Shown here: piece after piece, positions 16,676 through 64,000 of the stretch
Position numbering within the stretch: the stretch's first letter is position 1
Layout: every line of letters starts with the position of its first letter
Virus record (IMG/VR): IMGVR_UViG_3300036828_000667
Coordinates: 1 to 64,000 of that record
DNA length: 64,000 nt
DNA from: a virus
Direction: 5' to 3' (one strand)
The notes under the pieces: generated by a model
Databases searched by the model: none
What the model was told of the DNA's origin: nothing
What the model saw: only the letters and a program-made list of their open reading frames with translations
Program-made: the position numbers and the translations under genes

Positions 16676-16760
16676 GCACACCGAACCGGAGCATACCTAC
16701 CCACGCCTTCCCGCGCCATTCCAAACCATACCCAACCTACCCTCACCACACCGCACCATA
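16676..16760 (+). ncRNA. pentamer element E1, 17 units
   Basis: (C/G)C-NNN x17; TTGACA 16640; ends CCACA CCGCA CCATA. Confidence 0.85.
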
Positions 16761-20492: not shown

Positions 20493-20546
20493 TGGTCATC
20501 TCCTTTGTTGACAAGACTACCTCAATAGGTGTTAAAAGCTTCTTCT

Positions 20547-20611
20547 ACGGACCATTCCGATCCGAAGCCAGCCCCACCGTGCCTATCCCCTCCCCAGCGA
20601 ACCGAACCACA
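20547..20611 (+). ncRNA. pentamer element E2, 12-13 units
   Basis: TTGACA 20508; CC-NNN register; ends CCGAA CCACA. Confidence 0.82.
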
Positions 20612-34436: not shown

Positions 34437-34511
34437 GCATACCGCCCCTCTCCAGGCCGCTGCACGGCATACCGAACCGCCCCTGCCCTGACCAAAGCAC
34501 ACCGCACCATA
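34437..34511 (+). ncRNA. pentamer element E3, 15 units
   Basis: TTGCCA 34401; ends GCACA CCGCA CCATA CTTT. Confidence 0.85.
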
Positions 34512-39401: not shown

Positions 39402-39920
39402 TCATTCGGCGGACCACTGGATGATAAGCTTGTCGTTAGATAGACCAGCCTTGAAACTGCGATTATTGGCGATTTGTTCGACTATCTGTCTGGCACGAAC
39501 AATGGTCACTTCTTTTTCCATGATTCCTAAAGCTTCACGAATAGACTTACCTACCCGCACCTTAATCATACCACTACTCCTTGTCGTGCCATCCGAATTC
39601 AACCTACGTCTCCACTCAAGATTACTAGGACGGTTATCAAACCTAATATCATTCAGATGTTTAGCCATATACCCAGGTTTTTTAACCTGTCCAGTGAACG
39701 CAGATAATATAAACCAATGAGAAAGGTAACGACGATAGTGTTTTATAACTACCAAATAACCATCAGGGGTAAGAGTTTGTATTCTAAGTTCTGTCTTCTC
39801 TACGACTCTATGGCCAACGATACCACCCGGTAACACTCTAATACGACCATGATCAGAAGCTTGGTGATAAGGCCAATCTGGAATGTCTTTCCAGATCTCA
39901 CCCTTGTGTCCCCGAATCAT
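39402..39920 (-). CDS. NUMOD4-HNH protein fused to an extra C-terminal domain
   Basis: EIWKDI..QASDHGRIR; HLND...DNR.SNLEW. Confidence 0.75.
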   Translation of the reverse strand: MIRGHKGEIWKDIPDWPYHQASDHGRIRVLPGGIVGHRVVEKTELRIQTLTPDGYLVVIKHYRRYLSHWFILSAFTGQVKKPGYMAKHLNDIRFDNRPSNLEWRRRLNSDGTTRSSGMIKVRVGKSIREALGIMEKEVTIVRARQIVEQIANNRSFKAGLSNDKLIIQWSAE

Positions 39921-40176: not shown

Positions 40177-40258
40177 GACCGTCTATCCCATCCGAACCAG
40201 TCCAATCCTATCCTATGCACACCGCACAGAATGACCTAAGAGAAATCTTAGGTCATTC
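40177..40258 (+). ncRNA. pentamer element E5 (8-10 units) with GAAA-loop hairpin
   Basis: TTGACT 40148; GCACA CCGCA; 13-bp stem 40229-40258. Confidence 0.85.
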
Positions 40259-40729: not shown

Positions 40730-40811
40730 GCGAGCCAAACCGGTCCACTCCACGCCCCTCCTTCGCTTACCGATCCACACAGAATGGCCTGAGAGAAATC
40801 TTGGGCCATTC
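40730..40811 (+). ncRNA. pentamer element E6 (10 units) with GAAA-loop hairpin
   Basis: TTGACT 40695-N17-TACTAT; stem 40782-40811 with two G-U pairs. Confidence 0.85.
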
Positions 40812-45497: not shown

Positions 45498-45557
45498 TAT
45501 GGTGTGGTATGCTGCGGTGTGGTTCGAGGGGCCGCGGGCTGGTTTGGTTAGGGTTGC
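45498..45557 (-). ncRNA. pentamer element E8, 12 units
   Basis: NNN-GG/GC register on plus; tandem with E9. Confidence 0.8.
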
Positions 45558-45578
45558 AGAACACAGTATGAACTAAAG

Positions 45579-45633
45579 TATGGTGCGGTATGCTGAGGAT
45601 TGCGATGGTCTGCGCTGGGTCGCTGTGCTAGGC
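45579..45633 (-). ncRNA. pentamer element E9, 11 units
   Basis: TTGACT(-) 45663-45668 N17 TATGGC; ends GCATA CCGCA CCATA. Confidence 0.82.
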
Positions 45634-46877: not shown

Positions 46878-47188
46878 CTAGATCAGCGCTAGAAGGTTAC
46901 TGCCGAGAGCTATAGTGAAAAGGCTTCACCTAATCTTCGTCCTCACAGGTTTCAGGAGTACATAGGTAGCACTCTGTCCGTCGGTGGTGAATAAACCAGC
47001 ACCTTCCGCAGTACCACTTACCGTCGTCCCCCTTCATGGGTTGAGGCTTCTCGCAGTCCCGCGGACAGTGGTAGTGATCAGCTTTCATACTCACCGCTCC
47101 GCAGAGTTCGTCTTTGACCATAATTTAGGACAGCTTTCTCCGAAGAGGACCATCCTTCCTTACCCCATATCTCCATTAAGTACAAAAG

Positions 47189-47268
47189 TATGGTGCGGTG
47201 TGCAGCGGTTAGGCATGGGATGGGCGGGCTGGCGACGGCGAGGCACGGGTTGCATTGGTGTGGGTTGG
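47189..47268 (-). ncRNA. pentamer element E10, 16 units
   Basis: follows hairpin 47281-47317; ends GCACA CCGCA CCATA CTTTT. Confidence 0.85.
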
Positions 47269-47325
47269 TAGGATAGAGGACAAAGGACCAGAAGATTAGA
47301 TATCCTCTGATCCTTTGAACAGATG

Positions 47326-47390
47326 TGCGGTTTGGTATGCTGTGGGCCGGCACGGCTGGGGGTGGCGCGGGAAGGCTTGGCATGGCTTGC
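47326..47390 (-). ncRNA. pentamer element E11, 13 units
   Basis: TTGACT(-) 47421-47426 N17 TAGTCT. Confidence 0.88.
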
Positions 47391-47433
47391 ACCAAAAAGA
47401 CTACTACCAAACTTACCGCTAGTCAACCACTAT

Positions 47434-47847
47434 TTACCTGATACGCTGCACTAAGCAACCTTCCGATTTTGCCTGCCACGTCCCACACCACTGGCCAGCT
47501 TCAACAGGTCGCAAGATCCACTTTCGTGAATATTCCCAGATCGGAACGACCTTTTTTTCCATGACCTTCTGGCCGTTCTCGTCTAAGACGAGTTTGTTCT
47601 TTTCACCCCGCTTAGACCGTGAGATTTCCTGTGTCCCGACTTGCGTGGCAAATTTCATTTTGACCGCGGACACAGCTGAACCCAAAGTTTTCATGGGATC
47701 GGGCATCTTCTCGGTCTTAGCTGCGAAGAAGCTCTGTCCGACGCCCAATTTATCAAGAGGATATTTGGCGACCCCATTACGGTTACCACGTTTCGACTTC
47801 GGCATTTCCACCGCGTCGATGATTTCAAACGTCACTTGCTCTTCCAT
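47434..47847 (-). CDS. putative DNA-binding phage protein (contains E10 and E11 matches)
   Basis: KYPLDKLGVGQSFF motif. Confidence 0.75.
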   Translation of the reverse strand: MEEQVTFEIIDAVEMPKSKRGNRNGVAKYPLDKLGVGQSFFAAKTEKMPDPMKTLGSAVSAVKMKFATQVGTQEISRSKRGEKNKLVLDENGQKVMEKKVVPIWEYSRKWILRPVEAGQWCGTWQAKSEGCLVQRIR

Positions 47848-48227
47848 TCTGTTCTCCGTCTTTTGTGAGACGGCTCTTGACCGTCCTCTGTCACCATTTT
47901 ATCTCGTCACGATCCCATTGGGACCGATTACACTCTACAAAAATAGGGTGCTCCATAGCCCTTGTCAATAGCCTAGACACTACAGGCCATTGGCTACAAA
48001 GTGCCTTGGCAGGCGTGATCTAGGCCTACTCATATCTTAAAAGCCACTAGACCAGAACATTTTAATTCCACTGGGGAGAGCCGCATTGGCCTTTTTTCCG
48101 ATGGCCCAGGCCAAGGCTCCCATGCTGCACTGCACAAAACGATTTCGAATCAACCTGCCGTCTTGACCCCCGGACCACACGGTCTACACTACCCCAAGTC
48201 GTTCCCTCTCGCAGATCGGTTGAAAAA

Positions 48228-49913: not shown

Positions 49914-49978
49914 TGCGGTTTGGCCTGCAGCGGAGCGGATAGGCTAGGTTCGGATAGGCAAGGAAAGGCGTGGTATGA
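49914..49978 (-). ncRNA. pentamer element E12, 12-13 units
   Basis: TTGACA(-) 50011-50016; ends CCAAA CCGCA. Confidence 0.85.
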
Positions 49979-52382: not shown

Positions 52383-52437
52383 TGCGGTATGGGATGCATG
52401 GGGCAGGTCCGGCAGGGTAAGCGTCGGGGTGGGGTGG
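52383..52437 (-). ncRNA. pentamer element E13, 11 units
   Basis: TTGACA(-) 52469-52474; ends CCATA CCGCA CAATTTT. Confidence 0.83.
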
Positions 52438-56445: not shown

Positions 56446-56544
56446 AAGTCATCCTCTGTTTTTGAAATGACAGAGGATGACTTGTGCGGTTTGGTTAGGA
56501 ATGCAGTGGCTCGGCAGGGTTCGCTTCGGTTTGGTATGGTTCGA
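56446..56544 (-). ncRNA. pentamer element E14 (11-12 units) with 3' hairpin
   Basis: TTGACA(-) 56576-56581 N17 TACGTC; stem 56446-56483. Confidence 0.85.
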
Positions 56545-56565: not shown

Positions 56566-57183
56566 TTGACCGTCTTGTCAAATGGGTGCAAAATGTCCAA
56601 GAAGTTCTCAATATCAGTGGACCATAATGCATTAAGGCAATTTCCGTTTCTGGATCGACTCCAGAAACAACAATTCCCCATTTCAACCCTCAATGAAGTT
56701 ATGTACGTTCTTGAAAATAGACCTGAAGGATTCAAAATCGAGTTGGTTTATAGTGTATTGAAAGTGTCGTTAATTAACGTCAATAGAGACACCAATGACG
56801 ACTACTTGGGATTGCCGAAGATTGAAGGTCAGTTGAAAGACCTGTGTGATGTGATCAGAGAGACCACGTCATATGGAACACGTGGGGGAGTCGACCCAAG
56901 GACACAAATATATTATAGTAGGAAGTCGTCTATTCTACAGGGTAGTAACCTTAGTGATGATGCTCTGATAGCTCCTAATTATGTTTCTAATAGAGGTTTG
57001 AGAAAACGCCATCCTCTTGATCTTGTGTCCACAGAAGAGGTCGTTAAAAGAAGGGAACTTGCTAACCGACACTGGCAAGAACAGAAAAAAGAGCAACGAA
57101 GAAAACAACAGTCCAGTATCAACTCAAAAATCCGGAATGCTCAGGACTTTTTGACAAGAAGCAATTTTGACAAGAAGCAATAA
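56566..57183 (+). CDS. hypothetical protein (contains E15 match)
   Basis: start probably 56593. Confidence 0.7.
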   Translation: MTVLSNGCKMSKKFSISVDHNALRQFPFLDRLQKQQFPISTLNEVMYVLENRPEGFKIELVYSVLKVSLINVNRDTNDDYLGLPKIEGQLKDLCDVIRETTSYGTRGGVDPRTQIYYSRKSSILQGSNLSDDALIAPNYVSNRGLRKRHPLDLVSTEEVVKRRELANRHWQEQKKEQRRKQQSSINSKIRNAQDFLTRSNFDKKQ

Positions 57184-57201: not shown

Positions 57202-57299
57202 GCGAACCGGTCCAATCCGAACCGACCCTATCCCTACCGGACCCTTGCACAGCATACCGCACATCTACCCCTCAGGCTGTATTACACAGCCTGAGGGGT
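57202..57299 (+). ncRNA. pentamer element E15 (12 units) with 3' hairpin
   Basis: TTGACA 57167 N17 TAACCT; stem 57267-57299. Confidence 0.87.
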
Positions 57300-61648: not shown

Positions 61649-62176
61649 ATGGCAAAACACAATGAAGAAAATGATCTATGGTTCCTTAGCAAAATCGCAG
61701 ATGGAACCATTTCTGTATCCGAAGACGGAGAGGTCTTCAACAACAAGACAGGTAGATATATAGGCGCTCAACAAGGAGCAGGTTACCTTAAGATTTCTAT
61801 GGCAAAGAGAGTTGATGGAAAACTTGTTATTGTCCATATGCAAATCCATAGGTTAGTATGGCTACATTTCAAAGGACCTATTCCTCAGGGACTAGAAGTC
61901 AATCACAAAGATTTAAACAAATCGAACCCACGATTGTCAAATCTAGATTTACAAACACCCAAAGGGAATGCTGAACATGCCACCTTAAATGGTGTTGACC
62001 GACGCTCAAAAACAGGAGGCCATAAAAACGCTAATGCCAAATTTACACGTGAACAAGTCGAGATGCTACGGAGACAATTCAAATCGAAAGAAACCACAGT
62101 TAAAGAAATAATGATAAACTATAGTGTTTCTAAGCCAGTTGTGTATTGGATGCTGGAAGGAAGGACCTATAAATAG
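61649..62176 (+). CDS. HNH endonuclease
   Basis: IHRLVW..F.GPIP..EVNHKD.NK.N..L.NL. Confidence 0.88.
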   Translation: MAKHNEENDLWFLSKIADGTISVSEDGEVFNNKTGRYIGAQQGAGYLKISMAKRVDGKLVIVHMQIHRLVWLHFKGPIPQGLEVNHKDLNKSNPRLSNLDLQTPKGNAEHATLNGVDRRSKTGGHKNANAKFTREQVEMLRRQFKSKETTVKEIMINYSVSKPVVYWMLEGRTYK

Positions 62177-62625: not shown

Positions 62626-62811
62626 ATGCGTTGCGATCGGTGTCAGGGAACAGGCTGGGATCGGGCAGGAGTACACCCTGTACTTGGGCCGCTCTTCGAT
62701 TGCAACCATCCGTGTACTGAATGCGGCGGGTCAGGCATCGCCCACTGTTGCGACGGCATCTGCGAACAGCCTTCAATTGACAAGTCTATAGATGACAAGC
62801 TAACATCTTGA
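62626..62811 (+). CDS. small DnaJ-like zinc-finger protein
   Basis: CDRCQGTG, CTECGGSG. Confidence 0.6.
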   Translation: MRCDRCQGTGWDRAGVHPVLGPLFDCNHPCTECGGSGIAHCCDGICEQPSIDKSIDDKLTS

Positions 62812-62812
62812 C

Positions 62813-62877
62813 GCCTACCGTACCACTCCGACGCCAACCACACCGAGCCGGTCCATACCTTTCCAAACCAAACCACA
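62813..62877 (+). ncRNA. pentamer element E16, 13 units
   Basis: TTGACA 62777 N18 TAACAT; ends CCAAA CCACA CTTTTTT. Confidence 0.85.
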
Positions 62878-63410: not shown

Positions 63411-63514
63411 TCGAACCGCTGCCTTGCTTGCCAAACCGGGCCAAGCCGGCGCGGACCAAACCTCCGCACACCGCACAATGGGAGTAGTCAAATGGCTTGC
63501 AGACTACTCCCATT
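63411..63514 (+). ncRNA. pentamer element E17 (13 units) with 3' hairpin
   Basis: TTGACC 63369; GCACA CCGCA; stem 63477-63514. Confidence 0.88.
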
Positions 63515-63533: not shown

Positions 63534-64000
63534 ATGCTAATTTCAGTCACGATCTCCGGAATCCGACCTTTAATCCTCGACGCGTTTTCCGAGGAAGCGT
63601 TGCTTAAGGGGAAGGGAGGAAAGAGTACAGCCCAGCCCAAGGAACTGAGTCCCTTGGATCAAGCCAAGCGTAGGTTATACTATAATGGAGATGGTACCGA
63701 CGTTCCTATATTCCCAGCAGACAACCTACTCAGCTGTATCATCGCTGCCGGGCGGTTTATCAAGGTCGGGAAAAGGCAACTAACTACTCGCGACAGTACG
63801 ACAGTAACTTCATTCCTACAGATATCAGAACTATATCTTCCCATTAGGTCGATAGATGGATGGCGAGTCGACTCCAGGAGCATCGTCAACCCGTCTACAA
63901 AAGGTCGTCACATATGCTACCGTCCCATCTTTGACGACTGGGAGTTAGATTTCACGCTCGACATCGATACGAATGAAGCGAGCGACAGCTTGGTTAGACA
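63534..64000 (+). CDS. RAMP/Cas7-like protein, truncated by the window end (not in ORF track)
   Basis: AGGAG RBS; MLISVTISGIRPLIL..., PIFPADNLLSCI, D.R.IV...GRH..YRPIFDDWELDFTL.ID; no stop to 64000. Confidence 0.7.
   Translation, partial: MLISVTISGIRPLILDAFSEEALLKGKGGKSTAQPKELSPLDQAKRRLYYNGDGTDVPIFPADNLLSCIIAAGRFIKVGKRQLTTRDSTTVTSFLQISELYLPIRSIDGWRVDSRSIVNPSTKGRHICYRPIFDDWELDFTLDIDTNEASDSLVR

What the first reader, a model, noticed from the sequence alone, without database searches (positions are those of the whole stretch)
47326..47661. E11 decodes to KMKFATQVGT, 10/10 aa with the adjacent gene, 8 of 10 wobble bases different
Element: aag atg aag ttc gcg acc cag gtg ggc aca. Gene 47632-47661 (minus): aaa atg aaa ttt gcc acg caa gtc ggg aca. 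All position-1/2 bases match and every difference is synonymous. The third base is therefore target-derived rather than scaffold. Either base 3 is skipped and this is a perfect self-target (regulation), or it is read and the gene has escaped.
Basis: seen in the sequence. Interest (0 to 1): 0.88.

Follow-up and report, generated by a model that had tools for sequence, protein, structure and literature searches.

The report
Phage VIPR guide matching own gene
E11 is a guide-RNA gene of a VIPR system, a CRISPR-like gene silencer of phages first described in 2026. It spells a conserved ten-residue motif of the gene next door, and in this unusual subtype the normally fixed third base of each repeat also carries codon information.

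Summary
Positions 47326-47390 (+) hold 13 pentamers NNN-G(G/C). The last ten triplets, reverse-complemented, read aag atg aag ttc gcg acc cag gtg ggc aca = KMKFATQVGT. That equals residues 63-72 of the adjacent minus-strand gene (47632-47661): 20/20 at codon positions 1-2, and 8 of 10 wobble bases differ, all synonymously.

E11 is one of about 30 such arrays in this 113.8-kb phage genome. The associated 213-aa gene (63534-64175) is a Vipr homologue (PDB 36pp profile E 2e-14; Cas7/Csm3 fold). E11 is therefore a vrRNA of a VIPR system (bioRxiv 2026). In that system the NN dinucleotides pair with dsDNA and every third target base, the codon wobble, is skipped.

This scan has already flagged VIPR in at least 23 other genomes.

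What is unusual here:
- The clade has a GVMRP G-loop and admits purines at the 'Y' position.
- That base tracks coding constraints (Fisher 1e-5).
- Resident codons match the guide's codons less often than expected (16 vs 27.5, P 0.0014).
- E11 is the only guide whose variable units all match the phage's own genome, and its motif has no Leu/Arg/Ser codon that could escape synonymously.

Whether the own gene is silenced or is spared through the third base remains open.

The parts
47326..47340 (+). Constant 5' units of the guide (tgcGG tttGG tatGC). This header is shared by about 30 arrays of the genome.
   Evidence: Header consensus (tat GG) tgc GG tNt G[GC]. These units do not match the target.
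47341..47390 (+). Ten variable pentamers NNN-GG(/GC) of vrRNA E11. This is the guide proper.
   Evidence: 10/10 units match 47632-47661 at codon positions 1-2.
47632..47661 (-). Site matched by E11 in the resident gene. It encodes KMKFATQVGT (residues 63-72).
   Evidence: The motif is the conserved core of the family (alignment A1).
47434..47847 (-). Resident target gene, 137 aa, DUF7303 / phrog_7597.
   Evidence: Pfam PF23978 E 2.3e-24. PHROG 7597 E 1.8e-22. Fourteen homologues at 93-49% identity.
47940..47968 (-). Promoter-like site (TTGACA-17-TATTTT) upstream of the DUF7303 gene. It contains the enriched TTGACAAG motif.
   Evidence: This is a consensus match only.
47189..47268 (+). Neighbouring guide E10 (16 pentamers). 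No convincing target in the genome.
   Evidence: The decoded end VQRIM* resembles the C-terminus VQRIR* of the DUF7303 gene, but only 5 of 13 variable units fit.
47269..47318 (+). Hairpin between E10 and E11 (aggatagagga...tcctctgatcct, then ttt). It is probably the terminator or processing signal of E10.
   Evidence: Read from the sequence. Not tested.
47578..47602 (+). Terminator-like hairpin plus T-run on the E11 strand. It lies inside the DUF7303 gene, about 30 nt before the target site.
   Evidence: This is a consensus match and the count is no higher than in shuffled sequence.
63534..64000 (+). vipr gene (213 aa; it runs to genome position 64175, beyond the window). This is the effector that would load E11.
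63416..63475 (-). Sister guide that decodes to residues 22-33 of the phage's own Vipr (ALLKGKGGKSTA). There are three unit mismatches, from Leu/Leu/Ser codon-block switches.

Best explanation
E11 is a guide-RNA gene (vrRNA) of a VIPR system. The strand carrying GG is transcribed. Protomers of the Vipr protein (63534-64175) are expected to bind one pentamer each, sequestering the G(G/C) spacer and presenting the variable bases. The filament then pairs with double-stranded DNA in a gapped register, two bases read per codon with the third opposite the wobble base, and blocks transcription. E11's ten variable units specify AAx ATx AAx TTx GCx ACx CAx GTx GGx AC, the conserved KMKFATQVGT motif of DUF7303 genes. 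I read it as a weapon against DUF7303 alleles of competing phages that sits next to the resident allele, as at least eight sister guides in this genome do. This Vipr clade does not fix the third pentamer base as a pyrimidine, and that base spells a synonymous codon. I therefore lean towards the third base contributing to recognition here, so that the resident allele, which differs at 8 of 9 possible synonymous positions, is spared. Shown: the anatomy, the Vipr homology and fold, the codon-phased matches and the third-base statistics. Inferred from the published SUSP1 work: filament formation, DNA binding and silencing. Not shown: expression of E11, and any reading of the third base. My odds: E11 is a VIPR vrRNA, about 0.9. 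Aimed mainly at rival alleles, about 0.6. Third base read and own copy spared, about 0.4-0.45.
For: E11 is one of about 30 period-5 arrays with a shared header. Twenty shuffles of the genome gave 0-1 arrays each. The 213-aa ORF has tblastn homologues in 33 of 114 IMG/VR loci that were fetched only by the pentamer DNA pattern. Its profile hits PDB 36pp 'SUSP1 Vipr protein' at E 2.2e-14. The AF2 model (pLDDT 82.6) matches Csm3/Cas7 RAMPs with probability 1.0. R138/R179/P180 of SUSP1 are conserved as R130/R171/P172. The published rule is NN read and 1 nt skipped on the wobble, on either strand, giving silencing; alternative NNNGG repeats are mentioned. Ten guides decode to genes within 60-450 bp. 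E11 matches a 61%-identical foreign DUF7303 gene (L116) at 9/10 units. Third base: in split codon boxes it follows the resident's class at 19/3 vs 6/21 (Fisher 1e-5), with no association in family boxes. TA_ units are 15 TAY against 4 TAR. Identical codons number 16 against 27.5 expected (P 0.0014; 0.002 with the resident genes' own usage). GC3 is raised in target segments. All 5 loci with a GVMRP G-loop have 41-55% purines at that base, against about 0-15% in most loci with a D/E-aromatic G-loop. SUSP1 pocket residues E71-M72 align with the smaller D63-N64.
Against: There is no RNA evidence that E11 is expressed, and I found no clear promoter directly upstream; a hairpin sits there instead. 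In the solved SUSP1 complex the third guide base and the skipped target base point in opposite directions and do not pair. If that geometry holds here, E11 is simply a perfect self-target. The codon-avoidance signal weakens to P 0.08 when G.T and U.G wobble pairs count as paired, and the analysis was chosen after seeing the data. No sequence carrying the cognate 30-mer, or even the exact NN pattern, was found in IMG/VR. The resident peptide is the best match known to me, so no rival target has been identified. The two DUF7303 homologues with enough flanking DNA (L116, L117) carry no arrays.
Confidence: 0.55

Rival explanations
1. The published skip rule holds unchanged. The third base is ignored, and E11 is a true self-targeting guide that represses the phage's own DUF7303 gene (temporal shut-off or autoregulation), and any rival allele as well. 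The synonymous third bases are then a historical trace: the guide was copied from, or co-evolved with, a coding allele.
For: All 10 variable units match the phage's own gene, the only such case in the genome. The motif contains no Leu/Arg/Ser, so the resident gene cannot escape without changing a conserved residue. In the SUSP1 structures the third guide base is sequestered and the skipped base flipped out. Mid-gene sites are effective targets in the published work.
Against: The published surveys found no self-targets at 80% or more NN match. The other self-resembling guides here fall below that level (65-79%), which points to avoidance of self-silencing as the norm. An unread, freely drifting third base should not stay synonymous in 41 of 49 split-box units. 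Resident codons also should not match the guide's codons less often than chance. No copying mechanism is known for VIPR.
Confidence: 0.3
2. E11 is a decaying or inactive guide, or one that also needs its three constant units to pair (10/13 = 77%, under the 0.8 threshold used in the literature). It would then have no effect on the resident gene, and the match would be a relic of its origin from that gene or a homologue.
For: There is no recognisable promoter directly upstream. Counted over all 13 units, the match fraction resembles that of the sister guides.
Against: Ten consecutive perfect units and an intact header and spacer pattern are not what decay leaves behind. The constant units are shared by all guides and so cannot be target-specific.
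Confidence: 0.1
3. The element is not a guide at all. It could be a G-quadruplex-forming (GGN3)n tract, a protein-binding DNA repeat, or a sequence translated by unconventional five-base decoding into a peptide copy of the neighbouring protein.
For: GGNNN repeats fit a two-tetrad G4 motif. The amino-acid-level match first suggested translation.
Against: The arrays co-occur with a Vipr homologue across dozens of unrelated viral contigs. The published biochemistry explains the period and the codon phase. One guide matches its gene on the antisense strand in wobble phase, which rules out translation. Decoded guides contain stop codons.
Confidence: 0.03

Closest known systems
Type II VIPR system of Escherichia phage SUSP1 and a Pseudomonas fulva prophage (bioRxiv 10.64898/2026.04.26.720920; structures 10.64898/2026.04.26.720927, PDB 36pp)
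   Same: A small RAMP-fold Vipr protein. Guide RNAs made of tandem pentamers with a G-G spacer. Variable bases match protein-coding targets in codon phase, with the unread position on the wobble. One guide lies upstream of vipr and an array lies downstream. Some guides are aimed at vipr genes themselves.
   Different: The base after GG is not restricted to pyrimidine here (38% purines). The spacer is GC in 23% of units. The G-loop reads GVMRP instead of GDWRP, and helix-1 E71-M72 aligns with D-N. The conserved part is a 5' header of 2-3 constant units rather than a 3' pseudoknot tail. About 20 guides are dispersed over 50 kb beside the genes they resemble. E11 matches its own genome at 100% of its variable units, whereas no self-target of 80% or more was reported.
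Solo (orphan) vrRNAs of VIPR-null SUSP1-like phages and F5 satellites (bioRxiv 10.64898/2026.10.15.759431)
   Same: Stand-alone guide genes away from the vipr locus. Some target rivals' vipr near its start and its end. Self-match scores are lower than scores against rivals.
   Different: This phage keeps its vipr gene. Its solo guides sit next to the resident homologue of their presumed target. E11's self-match is not lowered at the read positions.
Alternative vrRNA repeat types (NNNGG, YNNNG, NNNNG) listed in the Methods of 10.64898/2026.04.26.720920
   Same: E11 and its sisters are NNN-GG/GC repeats, so they belong to a repeat class whose existence is already noted.
   Different: The text I read gives no targeting rule for that class. 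Here the third N is shown to be codon-aware.
Class 1 CRISPR Cas7/Csm3 backbone filaments
   Same: RAMP fold (Foldseek top hits). One protomer per guide segment. Thumb-induced periodic interruption of the guide-target duplex.
   Different: The period is five bases with two or three read, not six with five read. There is no CRISPR array, no cas1/cas2 and no identical direct repeats.

Membership tests
VIPR system | A Vipr protein: a small stand-alone RAMP homologue with an RRM core, a Gly-rich loop and a thumb | tested here: met
   The profile of 34 homologues hits PDB 36pp SUSP1 Vipr at E 2.2e-14 over residues 16-181. The AF2 model has pLDDT 82.6. Foldseek's top hits are Csm3/Cas7 with probability 1.0. 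R130, R171 and P172 align with SUSP1 R138, R179 and P180.
VIPR system | vrRNA made of 9-16 tandem pentamers with a conserved GGY alternating with variable NN (or a related consensus) | tested here: met
   E11 has 13 consecutive NNN-G[GC] units. The genome has about 30 arrays against 0-1 in shuffles. The consensus is the 'related' NNNGG form: position Y is 62% pyrimidine only, and the spacer is GG 77% / GC 23%.
VIPR system | Strict pyrimidine at the third scaffold position (the pocket excludes purines in SUSP1) | tested here: not met
   Over all units (header included) the base counts are T 135, A 56, G 52, C 48. E11 has G at 3 of 10 variable units. The same holds in all 5 loci with a GVMRP G-loop.
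VIPR system | Conserved 3' tail (a pseudoknot in the SUSP1 clade) after the repeat tract | tested here: not met
   Aligned flanks show a conserved 5' header (tat GG) tgc GG tNt G[GC] and no shared 3' sequence. Rfam finds nothing. Other VIPR types have other architectures, so this separates the type, not the system.
VIPR system | Targets follow the 1-nt skip rule, with the skipped base on the codon wobble, on either DNA strand | tested here: met
   E11 matches 10/10 units. Guides 16676, 63416, 64188 and 68201 match 11/17, 9/12, 14/20 and 12/18 units, each the unique best site in the genome and within 300 bp. The 68201 match is on the antisense strand, still in wobble phase.
VIPR system | Accessory gene vap next to vipr | tested here: inconclusive
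   No Pfam hit for the small ORFs flanking vipr and the array. An HTH_3 protein (genome 62202-62531) lies 1 kb upstream, and HNH genes are nearby. No vap reference sequence was available to compare.
VIPR system | vrRNA is expressed, co-purifies with Vipr, and the complex binds dsDNA and silences transcription | not testable with these tools
No RNA data were reachable.
VIPR system | No self-target at 80% or more NN match (reported for the published sets) | tested here: not met
   E11 matches its own genome at 100% of its variable units (77% if the three constant units are counted).
CRISPR-Cas (class 1) | An array of identical direct repeats with unique spacers, plus cas1/cas2 or multi-subunit effector genes | tested here: not met
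   There are no such repeats. The only cas-like gene is the stand-alone RAMP.

The most novel reading that the evidence does not exclude
In the GVMRP clade of Vipr proteins the pentamer is read as a full triplet, or the third base at least discriminates between alleles. A phage can then immunise its own copy of a conserved gene by synonymous recoding alone. Each dispersed guide together with its recoded neighbour would form a tightly linked weapon-antidote pair that silences the rival allele of that gene during co-infection, acting as a gene-level drive. E11 would be the cleanest case, because its motif has no Leu/Arg/Ser and so allows escape only through wobble bases.
Probability: 0.4. Interest if true: 0.8.

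Novelty: new variant of a known kind. Interest (0 to 1): 0.55.

Why it matters
VIPR was described only in 2026 and is proposed as the ancestor of CRISPR effector complexes. Its selling point is that it ignores wobble bases, so targets cannot escape by synonymous change. This phage shows a subtype in which the supposedly fixed scaffold base varies, follows the genetic code, and differs from the resident allele more often than chance. If that base is read, VIPR recognition codes are more plastic than the one solved structure suggests: 3-of-5 rather than 2-of-5. Self/non-self discrimination could then rest on synonymous recoding, and guides linked to recoded alleles would be a new form of inter-phage allele competition. 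If it is not read, E11 is the first clear natural self-targeting vrRNA and points to a regulatory use of VIPR. A single reporter experiment can settle which holds.

Tried and rejected
- Translation by five-base decoding, and a 'reverse-translated' copy of the protein. Rejected once the Vipr link was found. One guide also matches on the antisense strand, and decoded guides contain stops.
- G-quadruplex or DNA iteron readings. Set aside for the same reason.
- Artefact or synthetic insert. Rejected because the same array type with the same protein occurs in many IMG/VR contigs of 29-73% GC.
- tRNA and Rfam scans: nothing found.
- Phage database by DNA and by protein: no match. One search failed on a length limit.
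- Close relatives of the DUF7303 gene in IMG/VR: none. A metagenome scan gave homologues of 61% identity or less, without arrays.
- Exact cognate 30-mer and exact NN pattern in IMG/VR: no hits.
- The same NN pattern in 596 Gb of genomes: two hits, which is the chance expectation, and neither is a clear DUF7303 gene.
- Guides of the related loci L012, L138, L139 and L192 gave no self-matches within the 10-15 kb held, so the third-base result could not be replicated on independent DNA.
- Own guides against 1.9 Mb of fetched loci: only E11 (L116, 9/10) and guide 64188 (L012 vipr, 13/18) beat shuffled guides.
- RNA fold of 47180-47620: not informative, z -1.8.
- The first two literature searches by description found nothing. 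The PDB molecule name led to the papers.

Full report
**Observation.**
Positions 47326-47390 on the + strand read as 13 consecutive pentamers: tgcGG tttGG tatGC tgtGG gccGG cacGG ctgGG ggtGG cgcGG gaaGG cttGG catGG cttGC. Taking the three bases before each G(G/C) and reverse-complementing the last ten units gives aag atg aag ttc gcg acc cag gtg ggc aca, which is KMKFATQVGT. The minus-strand ORF 47434-47847 (137 aa) carries aaa atg aaa ttt gcc acg caa gtc ggg aca at 47632-47661. All ten amino acids and all twenty first and second codon bases agree. Eight third bases differ, always synonymously. The register is right. In a scan of both strands of the whole 113,838-bp genome this is the only site with ten matching units; the next best has six. 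Shuffling the order of the element's codons never came near the peptide score (50 against a maximum of 36).

**A family, not a single element.**
The genome is a single phage contig with a T4-like portal. It holds about 30 arrays of NNN-G(G/C) pentamers between 16.6 and 68.3 kb, against 0-1 in each of 20 shuffles. They share a 5' header, (tat GG) tgc GG tNt G(G/C). The header is often preceded by ATAAAGTATGG or ATAAAATTG, which looks like a -10 box, and otherwise by a hairpin.
- Ten arrays decode to a peptide of a gene within 60-450 bp.
- One of them (68201-68290) matches on the antisense strand, still with the unread base on the wobble.
- A dense block of about ten arrays (64188-65414) lies directly behind a 213-aa ORF at 63534-64175.

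**What it is.**
That ORF has tblastn homologues in 33 of 114 IMG/VR loci that I had fetched only by the DNA pattern of the arrays. It has about 95 homologues of 43-66% identity with no Pfam domain.
- A profile of 34 of them hits one PDB entry, 36pp 'SUSP1 Vipr protein', at E 2.2e-14.
- The AlphaFold model (pLDDT 82.6) finds Csm3/Cas7 RAMP subunits with probability 1.0.
- The PDB name led to three 2026 preprints on VIPR, the Viral Interference Programmable Repeat systems.
- In those systems Vipr protomers coat a vrRNA of 9-16 YNNGG repeats and sequester each GGY. The NN dinucleotides are presented for pairing with double-stranded DNA in which every third base is skipped.
- The skipped base falls on the codon wobble, targets lie on either strand, and binding silences transcription. 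Natural guides aim at rival phages, satellites and other VIPR systems.

E11 is therefore a vrRNA, and its ten variable units specify AAx ATx AAx TTx GCx ACx CAx GTx GGx AC. Notes from this scan show that VIPR has already been recognised in at least 23 other genomes, including guides that sit beside an altered resident copy of their target.

**How this system differs from the published one.**
- The base after GG, a strict pyrimidine in SUSP1 because a narrow pocket excludes purines, is a purine in 38% of units here. The spacer is GC in 23% of units.
- This goes with the protein. All five loci whose Vipr G-loop reads G(I/V/L)GVMRP (own, L012, L138, L139, L192) have 41-55% purines at that base. 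Most loci with G.G(D/E)(W/F/Y)RP have about 0-15%.
- In the profile alignment, SUSP1 D177 and W178 align with V169 and M170. The pocket residues E71-M72 align with the smaller D63-N64.
- The conserved part of the RNA is a 5' header, not a 3' pseudoknot tail.
- The paper's Methods mention alternative NNNGG repeats but give no rule for them.

**The third base.**
I examined 83 non-header units whose first two bases match the resident gene.
- In split codon boxes the decoded third base follows the purine/pyrimidine class of the resident codon (19/3 against 6/21, Fisher 1e-5). In four-fold boxes there is no association (16/7 against 8/3).
- Eight Leu/Ser/Arg positions keep the amino acid while switching codon block, for example tcc/agt and cga/agg.
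- Over all guides, TA_ units are TAY 15 times and TAR 4 times, although 56% of decoded third bases are purines.

The resident codon is also identical to the guide's codon less often than its own codon usage predicts: 16 against 27.5 expected in 67 units, P 0.0014. With the usage of the nine resident genes themselves, P is 0.002. The target segments have raised GC3, for example 0.85 against 0.50 in vipr 64029-64088, and use rare GGG/CGG/AGG codons. This is what selection for third-base mismatch would produce. Two cautions apply. The signal falls to P 0.08 if G.T and U.G pairs count as paired, and the test was devised after seeing the data.

**Self or non-self.**
By the published rule the sister guides match their own genome at 65-79% of units, under the 80% used to call targets. 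E11 matches at 100% of its variable units, or 77% if the three constant units are counted. The published surveys found no self-target at 80% or more.
- KMKFATQVGT is the conserved core of the DUF7303 family. It contains no Leu, Arg or Ser, so the resident gene cannot change a read base without changing a conserved residue.
- E11 also matches a 61%-identical foreign DUF7303 gene (L116) at 9 of 10 units, so it could silence diverged rivals.
- I found no sequence with the cognate third bases. There was no exact 30-mer and no exact NN pattern in IMG/VR, and only two chance-level hits in 596 Gb of genomes.

**Verdict.**
E11 is a genuine VIPR guide gene (about 0.9) in a subtype with a variable, codon-aware third base.

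I think it is most likely aimed at DUF7303 alleles of competing phages and kept next to the resident allele, like its sisters. I lean (about 0.4-0.45) towards the third base contributing to recognition in this clade, which would spare the resident, synonymously recoded copy.

The main rival (about 0.3) is that the skip rule holds unchanged and E11 silences its own gene, as regulation. A single reporter assay with the resident and the cognate allele would decide between them.

The system is already known, so this is a new variant of a known kind, not a new kind.

Noticed in passing
window 63416-63475 (-), and genome 64188-64287 (-) = L115:2188-2287: The two guides flanking vipr decode to the phage's own Vipr: residues 22-33 (12/12 aa) and the G-loop region (17/20 aa). 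They mismatch the resident gene at Leu/Ser/Arg codon-block switches and at I/V and V/L changes (9/12 and 14/20 units). This looks like anti-VIPR guides paired with a recoded own gene.
   Followed up: partly
genome 68201-68290 (-) = L115:6201-6290; target 68405-68458: This guide decodes in the sense frame to VVQSLYDTPSNVYDMYD, against AVQSLYDTPSNVYEAYG at the C-terminus of the 641-aa gene 68353-70278 (-). It therefore pairs with the antisense strand, still in wobble phase (12/18 units).
   Followed up: partly
window 16676-16760 (-), 20552-20611 (-), 40187-40226 (-), 40730-40779 (-), 49914-49973 (+), 57202-57261 (-): These dispersed solo guides each decode to a peptide of an ORF within 60-450 bp. 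The differences are conservative (I/L, I/V, E/D, S/N). The 49914 match lies in a 14-codon open frame and may not be coding.
   Followed up: partly
window 34437-34511, 45498-45633, 47189-47268, 52383-52437, 56485-56539, 62813-62877; genome 64370-65414, 67031-67747: About 20 guides have no match in their own genome or in 1.9 Mb of fetched viral loci. Their targets are unknown and are presumably other mobile elements.
   Followed up: partly
window 47189-47268 (+): E10, just upstream of E11, decodes at its header-proximal (5') end to VQRIM-stop. This resembles the C-terminus VQRIR-stop (VQRIK-stop in homologues) of the same DUF7303 gene. The remaining units do not fit.
   Followed up: partly
window, 11 sites, e.g. 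47961-47968 (-), 20508-20515 (+), 56574-56581 (-), 57151-57174 (+), 62777-62784 (+): TTGACAAG occurs 11 times against 3.2 expected (no shuffle reached 11). It is probably the -35 region of this phage's promoters. Several copies lie right beside guides and point the opposite way.
   Followed up: partly
window 39402-39920 (-), 61649-62176 (+); genome 66253-66807 (-): Three HNH endonuclease genes (one of them HNH-AP2) lie among the guides. Whether they are homing endonucleases or VIPR accessory nucleases is unknown.
   Followed up: no
genome 62202-62531 (+) = L115:202-531: A Cro/C1-type HTH protein (PF01381, E 1e-12) lies about 1 kb upstream of vipr. It is a candidate DNA-binding accessory (vap-like) gene or an ordinary regulator.
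   Followed up: no
L140-L167 (IMG/VR loci with Vipr G-loop GLGD(F/Y)RP, about 40% identical to this Vipr): These loci have long arrays whose fifth base is C rather than G (NNNGC by my detector; GG in 0-28% of units). This is another repeat consensus within the family, and its register and code were not worked out.
   Followed up: no
window 47434-47847 and 63534-64000: The DUF7303 and vipr genes have GC3 of 0.59 and 0.54, against 0.38 for long ORFs of the genome. This hints at a separate history for these genes.
   Followed up: no
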